Positions 49,174 to 54,500 of a DNA stretch of 64,000 nucleotides are shown in pieces. Source of the stretch: Saccostrea cucullata (lineage: Eukaryota); the NCBI RefSeq assembly GCF_032062105.1, contig NW_026933907.1, positions 124,001 through 188,000 of the forward strand. Reading direction: 5' to 3'. Below the pieces are notes generated by a model. That model did not search any database and was not told the origin of the DNA. It was given only the letters and a program-made list of their open reading frames with translations. Position 1 is the first letter of the stretch, and every line of letters starts with the position of its first letter. A program made the position numbers and the translations under genes.

Positions 49174-49763
49174 TCAAGGAAAGGTCCTGTTTTGAAATTT
49201 ACAAGATAAAAATTGTTTCAATGCACCCTTTACAGTATTAATAAACAAATCATTGCCTAAATCTGTCATGTGAACACCATCTGAGCGGAATAAATTTCTT
49301 TGATTTGCAGTTATATCTGGGTACTTAATAGCTGCTCCATTTAATTTATTTAATACAAAAGATGCTACTGAACTATTGATTCTCCGCCTACATTTTTCTC
49401 CTTCAGTGTTAGCTACAACATTTGACCAGTTTCTACGTTGCAAGATATGAGACCAAATAATAATGCAATTTGGTAATCGTTCTTTTACTTTTGCTAAATT
49501 AGCCTTTATCATCATTTGTATACCTCTTAAAGTGTTATGCTGTTGTCCAATGTTGTTCCCCCCACAGTGAATAATAATGATATCTGGAGTTCTGTTACTA
49601 ACTAATAAAAAGTCTAATGTTGGGTTTAATTGCTCCCATACCATTCCACGAATTCCATGCCACAATGTTTTCGTTTGGCCTAATCCCAGGTCTGACTGAT
49701 TAGATTTGACTGCATAGCTATGTGCCCAATGTACAATTGAAGATCCTATAATCCAAATGACCC
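49174..49763 (-). CDS. Ngaro-encoded SGNH/GDSL hydrolase (open frame, no ATG before the catalytic Ser)
   Basis: Blocks VIWIIGSSIVHWA, WHGIRGM, IIIHCGGNN and FRSDGVHM; no internal stops. Confidence 0.85.
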
Positions 49764-49836
49764 CTGTAGAAAATCAATGCATCAATTTCAATCAAACATA
49801 TTGTGTAATTTCTATCAATAACCTTAACACTTGCAC

Positions 49837-50690
49837 TTAAGTATTTAAAGGACGAATGTATGATTTATATGCTGTTGATTTCCATCTACCCTTTTGTTGA
49901 ATTTCACTTTCAGACAACCCTTCCAAATACAAGTGAGTAGCACCCCCAATGCGAAATGAGTGGGTTTTGTAACTCGAAGTTTTGATATCTAGAAATTTTA
50001 AGGATTTATGTAACATGCTAGAAAACTGAAACTGTGTCAATGGCTTTGAGTTAAAGTGGGCAAAATACACATCCCTATCAATTTTGCTAGACAGCAGGGA
50101 AAACTCCTTCAACAAATTCACCAGCAGTACTGATTGTGACGTGTTAGGCACCCAAACTGAAGCCCCAGAGCCTAATTGGTCCGTTTTTGAACTTTTTATA
50201 AATACGGATTTGACACTGTCTAAAATCTGAATATTATCCCTTCTTAGATCTCTAACTTCACTTACTCTCAACAATGCAAAGAATGCCAAGGCAAAAGATG
50301 ACTGAAATAATACTGCTTCATATGTTGAGAAAGCCAAATGCGGTACTGCACTCAATAATCTGTGCAACAATGCCAATGTGATTGGTCGACGCATATCACA
50401 AGACAAAGACGACTTTTTGTACCCTGCCATCAATTTCTTCACCAAAAAAGACTCTAACGGATTTTCCAACCATTTACATTAATTAGAAAACTTATCCCTG
50501 ACATGTAGCATTTGACTGTAGAAAAGGAACATCCCTGCTCAGACATATAAGCTATGAAATTTAAAATATGGTCAAGAGGTGGAGGCCAGGTTTGCTGAAA
50601 TTCACAATTGACTCTAAAATTATAAAAACTCTGTAGTCCTTGTTTATAAACTTTACCAGTATTTTATGATATGCTATCTTGCAAAAGTTT
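49837..50690 (-). CDS. Ngaro tyrosine recombinase (catalytic domain 49837-50469 open; N-terminal part frameshifted)
   Basis: FFALLRVSE, SKTDQ, HSFRIGGAT, GRWKSTAYKSYIR. Confidence 0.9.
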
Positions 50691-50692
50691 GT

Positions 50693-52376
50693 TTATAGTT
50701 TCTCCATAATTTCCCAAAATTGCATTGGTACCGAAGAGGGAAATCGATCTGCCAAAGGGGCTAGCTGCCTGAACCTGGACCACTGAAATCGAGAAATTGC
50801 ATCAGCCACATTATTCTTCACACCCATTATATGTTGCGCTTTAATTTGAATATTAAATTGAAGAGTTTTCAGAACTAAGAAACGTAGCAACACCATGACT
50901 CTTTTGTTTTTGACGTTTTTTGATTGATAATCTGCACTAGAGCCATATTGTCTACATGAAGCAACAATTTAAGGTTTTTAAGTTTAGATGACCAAATACT
51001 AATACCCAATACTATGGGAACAAGCTCCAGTAATGTTATATCCCTAATTATGTCTGAAGACCAGTATGTGGGCCAGGATAAACAAGACCAATGATTTCCA
51101 AATACTACCCCACAGCCATATGCTCCTGAACTATCTGTAAAAAATTCTAAAAATTCACTGTCATGCCAATGTTGCGAAGGAAATGGCGTAGTACCATTAA
51201 AGTTGAGCAAAAATTGAACCCACATCTGCAAATCCATTCTAATTTCATTTGTTATTCTAATGAAATGAAATGATTTTTTAACTTCCATTGCCCCATAAAT
51301 CCTACAAATTTAGAAAAAGTCCTTCCTGCTGGTAATGCCTTAACTACAAAGGCCAATGCTCCTACCAGGGATTGCAACTGCTTGAGCGTTACCTTTTTAC
51401 AACTTAGAACATTCTGGATCTTTGACAACAATTCCTTTATTTTGTCCTCTGGAATAAAAATCGTTTGAGTTATAGTGTCAATGCCTAAGCCCAAAAAACA
51501 AATACGAGTAGTTGGACCCTCAGTTTTCTCTACAGCTAATGGAACCCCCAGCCCTTGACAGAGTTCTTGAAAACCACACATTAATATTTGACATTCATCT
51601 GTAGATTTCTCTCCAATAAAAAAAGAAATAAAAAATCATCTAAATAGTGAACTATACTCTCAATATTTGATTTATGCTGCACTTCCCAATGAAGGAAAGT
51701 TGAAAACTTTTCAAACAATGAGCAAGATATTGAACAGCCCATGGGCAAACGTTTGTCTATGTAGTACGAGTCTGCAATTTTGAAACCTAATAAACAAAAA
51801 TCTTGAGGACATATAGTTAACAACCTAAATGCATTTGAAACATCCATTTTTGCCATTAATGCCCCCTCACCTTTGGCCGAAATGACTTTTAATGCATCAT
51901 CTGACATCAAAAGTTGAATAATTGACCGAACACAACTCTGAATCTATATAATCATTCACACTATCCCCTATAGGATAAGATAAATTGGTGATCATGCGCC
52001 AACCCCCTTGTTTGTTTGGAAGAATACCTATGGGGTTACAACGTAAATAAGAAATGGGAGGGTAAGGAAAAGGGCCTAACACTCTCCCAAGCTCTATTTC
52101 TTTGTCTATCTTGACCTGAACCTCATTTACAAATTGTTGGGTAGATAGCATGTTTTTATATTCTATCCGTTTTCTATCTCCAAGGTATTTTAATTTAAAA
52201 CCAAATTTAAAACCATTAGCCAAACATTTGGCATTCTCACAGTCTGGGTAATTTTGTAACAACTGTTCTAAAAGTGATACATTTATGGGTGATCTGCCCA
52301 AATCCCATAGCTGGAGCTGAAGGTCATTTGCCACTTGTAAACTAATGTTTTTGTCCCTTCTGGAACTGGTTTCCAC
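50693..52376 (-). pseudogene. Ngaro reverse transcriptase-RNase H, several frameshifts
   Basis: WRMITNLS, MAKMDVSNAFR, LPMG, HYLDDFL, EKTEGP..FLGL; RNase H FTDSSG, ITLLEL, HVDNMALV, NNVADAISR. Spread over five ORFs. Confidence 0.9.
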
Positions 52377-54500
52377 TGTTCCTGTAATAATTATTGTTAG
52401 TATTGTGATTTACTGAAGTTGTTTGAAACTGGCTACCTTTGATACAAGTTTTCATAGGATGTAGGCCGTTGCATTTAAGACACTGGTGTAAATAATTATG
52501 TTCCCCAAACGAAGTTGGGGAACATATTGTTTTTACTCTGTTTCTTATTATTATTATTATTTTTCTTCTTCTTCCTGGGTACTTTTTTGTCCGGGAGTGA
52601 TCTTGAAAACTATACATCCGACTTAGGTAAAACCTTTTTAGGGTCAGTAGGCATGTTATGTAGATTTGCGGAACAAAGGTCATTTTGTGTGCACGTGCTT
52701 GCAAGAGCGTGCACGTGCAATGCGTGAAATGACCAATATAATAGATTAGCTGTAACTTTTCTACTTTTGGATGAAATGCTTTGAAACTCATAATGTGAGG
52801 ATATATTAGTAGCATAGACAATATAACATGGTCAAAATAGCAAGATCTCACGCGCATGCACGTGCGCTTCGCTCTGATTGGCTGAAACTAAAGTCTCAAT
52901 ATCTTTCTTGTTTTTGAATGAAATTCTTTGAAATTTTGAACATAGCCATATATAAGGATATCCTACATTATAATATATAGCAATTATCATGAAAACACGT
53001 GCATGCACGTGCACTGCAATCTGATTGGCTTAAACTTTAAATAGCTATAACTCCCTTGCTTTTCAACCAAACAGGATGGGATTTGGAACATAAATAGATA
53101 TAATGGACTTCTACAAGAAGGTGTGGTCACCATGCACATGCATACGCGTGCGTGTATGTGCGCTGCAATCTGATTGGCTGAAACTTTAAACAGCTATAAC
53201 TCCCTTGGTTTTCAACCAAACGGGCTGGGATTTATAACATAGATAGATGTAATGGACTTCTACAAGAAGGTATGGTCAACATGCTCATGTATGCACGTGC
53301 GTGCACGTGAAATGGGTAAAATCAAATATACACTTGAATGAGCGTATTTTTTCATACTTTTGATTAAATGCTTTCATATTTAGTATATTAAGATGTATAG
53401 ATTGTGTAGACAAGACGATATCGTCATTACGCTGATGCATTCACATGCACACGGTGCAATGCTAAAATTTAAATGAAATTGGTACATTTCTGGGTAAACG
53501 TTGTTGAAGTCTCAAATGCATAGAGTTTGTCTTATTTAATGTGGCTTACAGGGGATATGGCACCAAAAGGGAGTTGGGGAGCGTTTGGGGAACATCTGTA
53601 ACGGTCCCCGTTACAATTAGCACTAGTTACACATGTATTTATTACACACCCCTTGAAAATTAAAACTATAGCATTTTAAACGAGAAGGTGCTAAGCTAGT
53701 TTGAGGATTTCTCAACTGATTCCCACTTGCTTTATTACTTGGTGGTTGCATATAAACTAACCAGAGTTCTGCATCCACAGATGCCCAACTGATTGCCGAG
53801 TTGAATGACTTTTTTAATCGAAACTGAATGTCATATTCTTGCCAACCCTGATACATATTATCTGTCCCCCTCTTTATCGTTGCCATATACCTGAACAAAG
53901 ACAATGCTTCAGTAGGATGCTTCACTAAATAGATTGATCCAAAAATCAAAAAAGCATCCACCCACTGAGATATGTTCACAATTTTTTGTTCTTTAATCTT
54001 GGGTGTACCATCCTCAAAAACTTTGATTTGTAGGTGTAGACGTGGGGTCATGAAATAGTAGTTTGTTGAGATGAACAAAATTGAAATTCATTGTTATATA
54101 TTTTTTCTTTCAAACTTTGTGATACATGAACACCTAAGGGGGAAGCTGTACTTATAAATGGTAAAGGCAAAGCCAATGAATCAACTGTGTGTATTGTACC
54201 TGGGTCAGTTGTGCTCCCAGTCCCCTGTTCGTTAACCACGTCCTGCTGACTTGGCTGGGTCTGCAAGGCTTGTTCCATCATGCTGCTAACAGGAATACCG
54301 GTGGTTAAAGTAGAAACCTGAGGTAGCGTCGCCGTCGCCGAAACGGTTGACGTAGCTGTAGTGCCTTGAGGCCTAGTCCGTGTAATGGCCGCCTGGGTTC
54401 GTGGCGTGGTCCTAACCGCAGTGGAGATGGCTGCAGCAGCTTGACCGCTAGTACGGGCATATGGACTCTTGGACTTCGATTTTCTGGGAGCTCGCAACAT
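52342..54500 (-). pseudogene. Ngaro gag-like ORF, frameshifted near 54060 and split by a Helentron-type insertion
   Basis: QWVDAFLIF...WQEYDIQFR...W..VD.ELW, and a Cys/His finger CYSFNFQGVCNKYMCN | YLHQCLKCNGLHPMKTC that rejoins when 52497-53627 is removed. Confidence 0.85.
52497..53627 (-). mobile_element. Helentron-type element (third family) inserted at a TT in Ngaro gag
   Basis: Terminal palindrome ATGTTCCCCAAACGAAGTTGGGGAACAT, (ATT)n/(CTT)n microsatellite, internal ~160-bp repeats, subterminal inverted copy CGTTTGGGGAACAT, end CTAGTT. No TSD beyond the TT. Confidence 0.85.

What the first reader, a model, noticed from the sequence alone, without database searches (positions are those of the whole stretch)
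49174..54500. Predicted spliced Gag-N-terminus / SGNH-hydrolase fusion encoded by the Ngaro element
Seen: the hydrolase frame is open with all four SGNH blocks, but an in-frame TGA lies just upstream and there is no ATG before the catalytic GSS. A strong acceptor TTTTCTACAG ends at 49764 (phase 1), and gag has a phase-1 donor CCCAG|GTACAA at 54200/54199. Splicing gives MLRAP...TTDP-G-VIWIIGSS..., skipping the broken gag core, RT, YR and the Helentron. Established: some animal Ngaro elements carry an SGNH hydrolase of unknown role. Inference: this copy could still express an esterase fused to a low-complexity N-terminus even though it cannot transpose.
Basis: partly seen in the sequence, partly recalled or inferred. 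Interest (0 to 1): 0.7.

Follow-up and report, generated by a model that had tools for sequence, protein, structure and literature searches.

The report
Spliced Gag-leader esterase of Ngaro transposons
A shellfish jumping gene (Ngaro) splices the start of its gag gene onto an esterase gene that lacks a start codon of its own; the exact join is seen in RNA and the splice sites are kept across some two dozen distant families, so it likely makes a tethered esterase, but the RNA matches intact sister copies rather than this broken one.

Summary
The predicted splice is real and exact. The window holds a decayed Ngaro element (A1...B1-A2-B2). RNA shows a GT-AG intron 54199-49764 in 3 of 4 runs laid, 2 studies. 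A phase-1 acceptor precedes the SGNH motif in 25 of 25 families (124 of 125 copies); a phase-1 donor precedes the Gag core in 21 of 22 families; both far exceed controls. Public gene models already contain the join (P0004, P0005). A second phase-1 acceptor opens the recombinase frame (23 of 23 families; model P0123 joins it to the same leader), against a published frameshift guess; no RNA join was seen for it. Against: a pre-registered test in a distant family showed the donor in use but not the donor-to-SGNH join (0 of 4 runs). The reads match a sister subfamily (18 of 18 sites), not this copy (0 of 18), so expression from this copy is unsupported. The splice is a family-wide programme, not a rescue of a dead copy. 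The esterase's role is inferred. I found no paper describing the splice, but two key papers were unavailable. This scan noted the same thing in at least eight findings on other genomes.

The parts
54568..54813 (-). Split direct repeat A1 (5' end of the Ngaro element)
   Evidence: D2: 246 nt, 98% identical to A2
54200..54500 (-). Exon 1 coding part: gag ATG to phase-1 donor; 100-aa basic, low-complexity leader
   Evidence: pI 11.3, 68% S/T/A/P/Q/G; the sister model's leader is unfolded in AlphaFold (pLDDT about 50)
49764..54199 (-). GT-AG intron (4,436 nt here; about 3.3 kb in copies without the insert) that removes gag core, RT/RH and YR
   Evidence: joint: X22 4 reads, X23 7 reads, X3 one contig
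52342..54199 (-). Gag core and C-terminal Cys/His region, broken by two frameshifts and the insert
52495..53628 (-). 1,134-bp high-copy insert with subterminal repeat and 3' hairpin (Helentron/DINE-like; label recalled), absent from sister copies
50693..52409 (-). RT/RNase H frame, broken by four frameshifting indels
   Evidence: (RVT_1, E 2.9e-8)
50783..50805 (-). Predicted second phase-1 acceptor (CTGAT...TTTCAG, ends at 50783) at the start of the YR frame, inside the RNase H 'SRxQW' codons; no RNA join seen
   Evidence: model P0123 uses the homologous site
49837..50782 (-). Tyrosine recombinase frame, broken by one stop and one frameshift
   Evidence: (Phage_integrase, E 3.1e-10)
49174..49763 (-). 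Exon 2: intact SGNH hydrolase; by alignment Ser at 49740, Gly at 49647, Asn at 49557, Asp at 49281, His at 49272
48544..48823 (-). Repeat B1
   Evidence: D1: 280 nt, 95% identical to B2
48294..48539 (-). Repeat A2
   Evidence: D2
48207..49641 (-). Minor GT-AG intron from inside the SGNH exon to an acceptor between A2 and B2
   Evidence: (X23, 4 reads)
47823..48102 (-). Repeat B2 (3' end)
   Evidence: D1

Best explanation
This is a decayed copy of an Ngaro retrotransposon whose family splices the first 100 codons of gag onto its start-less SGNH hydrolase frame, and likely also onto its recombinase frame, so that one basic, unfolded leader would serve Gag, the esterase and the recombinase. Shown: the donor-to-SGNH join in RNA at the predicted bases, and the conservation of both sites. 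Inferred: translation of the 296-aa fusion; the recombinase join (site conservation and one public gene model, no RNA here); and the function. For function I commit to the following, at about 0.45: the basic leader binds the element's RNA or particle and may carry a nuclear signal, and it tethers an active lipid/acetyl esterase there for a membrane or trafficking step, as proposed for the LINE ORF1p esterase. The window copy inherited the sites; the RNA seen comes from sister copies.
For: RNA joint at exactly 54199-49764, CT..AC, in 3 of 4 runs, 2 studies. Depth is higher on both exons than on RT: X21 4.9 and 6.5 vs 0.9; X22 11.8 and 18.2 vs 1.9; X23 13.5 and 37 vs 3.8. Phase-1 YAG 8-20 nt before the W of W-x-x-GSS in 25 of 25 YR-linked families and 92 of 92 copies (phases 0 and 2: 1 family each), and in 32 of 33 further copies of the same families (the exception keeps the site but has lost a base after it). 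The 6 SGNH hits without YR lack that acceptor position. Phase-1 G|GTR 11-46 codons before the Gag core in 21 of 22 families. Public models P0004, P0005 and P0135 break at the sites predicted from DNA. Of 30 listed homologues with 60 or more residues before the motif, 24 start with a basic leader by my reading (oysters, mussels, a clam); one (P0013) was called on a 1,177-nt Logan contig. YR: the RNase H Gln codon at the site is CAG in 20 of 23 families, and the other 3 have a same-phase CAG within 2 codons (background 118 of 294, p 5e-6). P0123 is leader + YR; P0024 and P0031 are leader + YR-start exon + SGNH. Enzyme: S, D, H invariant and G, N at 90% or more in 46 sequences; model pLDDT 95 with SGNH fold; best PDB profile hit 4C1B, E 4.4e-10; dN/dS 0.06 for window vs L032, and 0.41 or less in 11 of 14 usable pairs. 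Leaders have 6-10 K/R in the first 25 aa in 23 of 23.
Against: The pre-registered test in a distant family (L073; note) failed in part. The predicted join 4338 to 7620 was listed in 0 of 4 runs. The donor was used, but the listed join goes to an acceptor between A2 and B2 (4 reads), with 14 loose ends at the donor unplaced. Depth there was low and min_share was 20. Junction counts in the window's family are small (11 reads, 1 contig) and X21 has none. No RNA join to the YR acceptor was listed in either lay (2 joints not shown). Only 1 of 11 YR homologues is a leader fusion. The CAG at the YR site also encodes a conserved Gln. Gene models are automated, and 6 of 30 join other pieces to the SGNH exon. 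Three of 14 dN/dS pairs are 0.69-1.05. One family (L113) shows no donor in the window scanned. No protein or activity data. The leader has no predicted coiled coil or helix, unlike ZfL2-1 ORF1p.
Confidence: 0.88

Rival explanations
1. The splice is real but the leader only donates a start codon; it does no targeting, and the esterase acts as a free enzyme.
For: Leader sequence and length are poorly conserved beyond the basic tip; dN/dS of exon 1 is 0.4 vs 0.06 for exon 2; it is predicted unfolded.
Against: The donor sits at the end of the low-complexity region, 11-46 codons before the Gag core, not right after the ATG. The basic tip is kept in 23 of 23 leaders, 8 of them with an R/K-x(2-5)-PY motif. 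Gag's own needs could explain the tip.
Confidence: 0.3
2. This particular dead copy is expressed and kept (domesticated) as an esterase gene.
For: Both exons, both sites and A1 are intact while the skipped part has 9 disabling lesions.
Against: Reads match the sister subfamily at 18 of 18 sites and this copy at 0 of 18. The lesion contrast has P about 0.11. Private exon changes are 2 non-synonymous, 0 synonymous. The animals sequenced may lack this insertion, so absence is not proof.
Confidence: 0.08
3. The hydrolase is made from unspliced RNA by its own ATG, re-initiation or frameshifting; the sites are incidental.
For: 11 of 92 copies have an in-frame Met before GSS; unspliced coverage exists; the join was not seen in L073.
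Against: 81 of 92 copies have no such Met, and the next Met lies behind the catalytic Ser. The YR frame ends 49-193 nt before the motif with no conserved overlap. The acceptor phase is fixed in 25 of 25 families.
Confidence: 0.04
4. The junction reads come from a spliced DNA copy or from template switching, not from ongoing splicing.
For: Up to 4 letters fit both sides of the joint; earlier scan notes report spliced DNA copies in other genomes; the joined form could not be checked in DNA runs.
Against: Ends are canonical GT-AG and in frame. None of 125 YR-linked SGNH copies examined has exon 1 next to the SGNH exon. Exon-1 searches for two families gave no hit adjacent to a listed SGNH hit; only 150 of 886 candidates were scored.
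Confidence: 0.05

Closest known systems
Ngaro-like YR retrotransposons with an SGNH ORF (Xenopus DIRS-53_XT, DIRS-54_XT; PMC9210276, passages read)
   Same: A1...B1-A2-B2 repeats; gag, RT/RH, YR, then an SGNH ORF of no proven function.
   Different: The passages describe four overlapping ORFs in amphibians, and the text has 0 occurrences of 'splic' or 'intron'. Here the host is a bivalve, the SGNH frame does not overlap YR, and it is reached by a conserved intron.
Frameshift model for Ngaro YR (Poulter and Butler 2015, seen only as quoted in PMC13003380, section 3.4)
   Same: The YR frame starts shortly inside the end of RT/RH.
   Different: The review calls programmed frameshifting probable. 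Here the overlap begins at a conserved phase-1 acceptor, and a public model joins it to the gag leader.
ZfL2-1 (LINE) ORF1p esterase, PDB 4C1B (PMC3905857: abstract and first part of Results read)
   Same: SGNH esterase behind a poorly conserved linker and a basic motif. Best PDB profile hit. The two 'transposon-specific' residues (H191, S228) have invariant counterparts by alignment (H65, S104).
   Different: That is one unspliced ORF1 with a coiled coil, in an element without Gag. Here the leader is borrowed from gag by splicing and has no predicted coil. 4C1B was not among the Foldseek rows shown.
Spliced env/ORF3 RNA of retroviruses and Gypsy elements (recalled); GDSL ORF3 of bdelloid LTR elements (PMC5408684, passages read)
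   Same: A downstream accessory ORF, reached in the env case by removing the gag-pol body from the genomic RNA.
   Different: The cargo is an esterase rather than a fusogen, about 100 Gag residues stay attached, and the same leader likely also serves the recombinase.

Membership tests
Ngaro-like YR retrotransposon | Split direct repeats A1...B1-A2-B2 | tested here: met
   (A 98%, B 95%); both pairs seen in 13 of 17 relatives
Ngaro-like YR retrotransposon | gag, RT/RH, YR in that order, YR start overlapping the RH end | tested here: met
Ngaro-like YR retrotransposon | No methyltransferase; SGNH ORF after YR | tested here: met
   no MT hit among 9 ORFs scanned; GDSL_2 E 7e-7, just under the curated cut-off; intact relatives have four ORFs
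Ngaro-like YR retrotransposon | RT/RH falls in the Ngaro clade rather than PAT | not tested
   no tree with reference elements was built
SGNH hydrolase | Four blocks with Ser, Gly, Asn, Asp-x-x-His | tested here: met
   S, D, H invariant, G and N at 90% or more of 46; block I reads GSS, not GDS
SGNH hydrolase | Flavodoxin-like five-stranded fold | tested here: met
   pLDDT 95; PAF-AH and GDSL hits, TM about 0.7
SGNH hydrolase | Esterase activity | not testable with these tools
   needs an assay
LINE ORF1p-type esterase protein | N-terminal coiled coil | tested here: not met
   no helix in residues 1-97 of P0004; it may work like one but is not a member
Spliceosomal intron | GT-AG ends joined in RNA, frame kept | tested here: met
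   for the window's family; not listed for L073
Domesticated TE gene | Expression and purifying selection of this locus after insertion | tested here: not met
   (low power)

The most novel reading that the evidence does not exclude
Animal Ngaro elements run a complex-retrovirus-like splicing programme: one basic Gag leader is the common N-terminus of Gag, of the recombinase and of the esterase, acting as a shared RNA/particle or nuclear address. This would replace the frameshift model for YR and make many annotated bivalve 'SGNH esterase genes' transposon messages.
Probability: 0.55. Interest if true: 0.72.

Novelty: new variant of a known kind. Interest (0 to 1): 0.6.

Why it matters
The Ngaro hydrolase ORF has been listed for years without a function or a way to be translated. 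The splice defines the real product, so activity, location and binding can now be tested. The matching acceptor at the recombinase offers an alternative to the published frameshift guess. The leader-plus-esterase layout parallels LINE ORF1p, which suggests that unrelated retroelements converged on a tethered esterase. Practically, a set of 'uncharacterized' or 'SGNH esterase' host gene models in oysters, mussels and clams are likely transposon RNAs.

Tried and rejected
Distant-family RNA test: predicted join not listed; a 2-letter insertion at the acceptor in 3 reads of X22 is unexplained; a 10-letter motif from the loose ends matched no fetched locus. Spliced DNA copies: none among 125 copies or beside the exon-1 hits of two families. 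A conserved acceptor or Met at the start of RT/RH: none seen in 15 ORFs, so how RT is made stays open. Alternative donor at 54298: no joint listed. Single-sequence PDB search: only chance hits. A generic donor matrix at threshold 2.5 missed the true GTACAA donor and was replaced by a G|GTR count chosen after looking at the alignment, so the donor statistic is post hoc. Dropped rows: 5 of 100 fetched loci where the motif was not located (L038, L041, L042, L049, L082); 4 Gypsy-linked loci; 3 of 25 families without a usable gag frame; 2 without a usable YR start; 3 saturated and 1 frameshifted dN/dS pairs. In one search the first YR segment was classed in the wrong frame; its one private change is a stop in the right frame, as the printed translation shows. 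Papers not held: Goodwin and Poulter 2004 and Poulter and Butler 2015. No complex prediction was run.
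Full report
1. Observation. The minus strand of 47823-54813 is an Ngaro-type element: A1 54813-54568, B1 48823-48544, A2 48539-48294, B2 48102-47823. It carries gag from ATG 54500, RT/RH (RVT_1) and YR (Phage_integrase), and an SGNH frame open from 49773 to 49174. Against intact sisters the copy has seven frameshifting indels, a 1,134-bp insert and one stop, all inside the stretch the intron removes. The genome is 1.17 Gb; the closest named proteins are from oysters.

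2. RNA. Four runs were laid on 47800-54900. The joint 49762/54199 skips 4,436 nt with CT..AC ends (cut +1), which is the predicted GT-AG intron. It has 4 reads in X22, 7 in X23, one contig in X3 (a second study) and none in X21. The libraries look unstranded, so the strand rests on the intron ends. Exon 1 and the SGNH exon are covered 3.5- to 10-fold deeper than RT in the three raw runs. The reads, however, carry the letters of the sister subfamily at 18 of 18 diagnostic sites chosen from the 40 rows shown; the window copy has 0 of 18. Three of those sisters have all four frames open. So the RNA shows the family's splice, not this copy's.

3. Conservation. The genome search scored 150 of 886 candidates; I fetched 100 long and 35 short stretches around them. 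Among the first 100 plus the window, 5 lacked a locatable motif and 4 were Gypsy-linked. The other 92 fall into 25 families at an 80% identity cut, down to about 31% from the window's enzyme. All 25 families and all 92 copies have a phase-1 YAG within 24 nt of the W-x-x-GSS motif, against 140 of 500 control windows. Among 33 further YR-linked copies of the same families, 32 comply. In 22 families with a usable gag frame, 21 have a phase-1 G|GT(A/G) 11-46 codons before the conserved Gag core; phases 0 and 2 give 4 and 0, and control windows give 16 of 61 (motif chosen post hoc). Eleven of 92 copies have an in-frame Met before GSS, always upstream of the acceptor.

4. Held-out RNA test. Before the second lay I noted the predicted join for family L073 (about 40% identical). 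It was listed in 0 of 4 runs. The donor itself was confirmed: 14 reads in X23 end their match at that base, and 4 reads join it to an AG between A2 and B2. The window's family uses an acceptor in the same spacer. L073 also shows three GT-AG 5' leader introns ending 4 nt before the gag ATG. Generality of the SGNH join therefore rests on site conservation and gene models, not on my RNA data.

5. Public proteins. A profile search listed 120 of 159 homologues. P0004 (292 aa) equals the gag leader of L032 for 97 residues and then its SGNH exon; P0005 and P0135 break at the donor predicted for the L043/L046 family. Of 64 proteins where my pattern found the motif, 30 have 60 or more residues in front; 24 of these begin with a basic leader by my reading, and 6 carry other pieces, mostly of YR or RH. 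For two proteins of other oyster species the leader matched a gag start here; for the mussel and clam proteins this was not tested. All are named 'uncharacterized' or 'SGNH domain-containing'. They are automated models, so only partly independent.

6. The recombinase. Earlier scan notes pointed to a second acceptor, and I tested it on this genome. The YR frame has no conserved Met and opens a few codons before the RNase H motif SRxQW. That Gln is CAG in 20 of 23 families, with a same-phase CAG within two codons in the other 3; elsewhere in RT/RH, Gln is CAG in 118 of 294 codons. The site is phase 1 in the YR frame in all 23. Model P0123 joins the L055-family leader to YR at these sites, and P0024 and P0031 use the same acceptor for a short middle exon. 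No RNA join was listed in either lay, and only 1 of 11 YR homologues is such a fusion. A review quoted in PMC13003380 thought frameshifting probable.

7. The protein. The enzyme keeps S-G-N-D-H, folds as an SGNH hydrolase and is under purifying selection between subfamilies (9 silent, 2 replacement changes; 11 of 14 usable pairs at 0.41 or less). Its best solved relative by profile is 4C1B, which I take to be the ZfL2-1 LINE ORF1p esterase of PMC3905857 (link recalled; the chain is named 'ORF1-encoded protein'). That enzyme hydrolyses esters, binds acidic phospholipids and sits behind an arginine-rich motif (abstract and first part of Results). The leader is basic at its tip in 23 of 23 cases and unfolded in the model of P0004. 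My committed mechanism is a basic leader that addresses the enzyme to the element's RNA or particle, or to the nucleus, with a flexible tether and an active esterase acting at a membrane step. Splicing is shown; translation is inferred; the role is an analogy (about 0.45).

8. This copy. Private lesions spare the two exons, but not beyond chance (P about 0.11), and the two private exon substitutions both change residues. There is no sign of domestication. The animals sequenced may lack the insertion, so silence is not proven.

9. Literature and novelty. Seven full-text searches (Ngaro or YR retrotransposon with hydrolase, SGNH, esterase, spliced, splice, intron or frameshift) gave no listing that describes this splice. 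I read passages of PMC9210276, PMC6681497, PMC7192593, PMC5408684, PMC4021074 and PMC9341512, passages and one section of PMC13003380, and the abstract and part of Results of PMC3905857; no supplements. The founding paper and the 2015 review were not held, and either may mention spliced ESTs. The element type and its hydrolase ORF are known; the expression route appears undescribed in what I could search. Eight earlier scan notes report it in lizards and other shellfish, none in this genome. They are unchecked AI notes and count as leads only. Verdict: new variant of a known kind; interest 0.6.

Noticed in passing
L093, L103, L129, L130 (and YR-less hits L151, L154): Gypsy-type LTR elements (gag, protease, RT, integrase) carry a third ORF of up to about 300-400 aa ending in an SGNH domain 36-40% identical to the Ngaro enzyme, without the conserved acceptor: apparent esterase sharing between retroelement classes in a bivalve.
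   Followed up: partly
window 48207; L073 9218: An acceptor in the spacer between A2 and B2 is used in RNA in both families tested: from a donor inside the SGNH exon (window family) and from the gag donor (L073). It gives a truncated or leader-only product; role unknown.
   Followed up: partly
L073 3702-4066: Three GT-AG 5' leader introns share an acceptor 4 nt before the gag ATG.
   Followed up: partly
L073 4338: 14 reads in X23 leave the element at the gag donor for sequence not on the stretch; possibly splicing of the leader onto flanking host exons.
   Followed up: no
window 52495-53628: High-copy non-autonomous insert with internal 149-bp repeats, a subterminal repeat and a 3' hairpin; very deep RNA coverage from other copies.
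   Followed up: partly
window 51004/53729 and 50123/50799: Non-canonical joints in RNA (skips of 2,724 and 675 nt), probably internally deleted family copies.
   Followed up: no
window 47495-47635 and 46875-47114: A 69-bp near-perfect palindrome and a 35-bp inverted repeat pair just beyond B2, likely small non-autonomous elements.
   Followed up: no
window 29636-30638, 37138-37762, 9918-10109: Tandem arrays with periods of about 147/293, 167 and 44 bp.
   Followed up: no
window 54454-54486 and relatives: Eight of 23 leaders carry a basic stretch ending in K/R-x(2-5)-PY, like a PY-type nuclear signal (label recalled); most others start with an MP..K/R cluster.
   Followed up: partly
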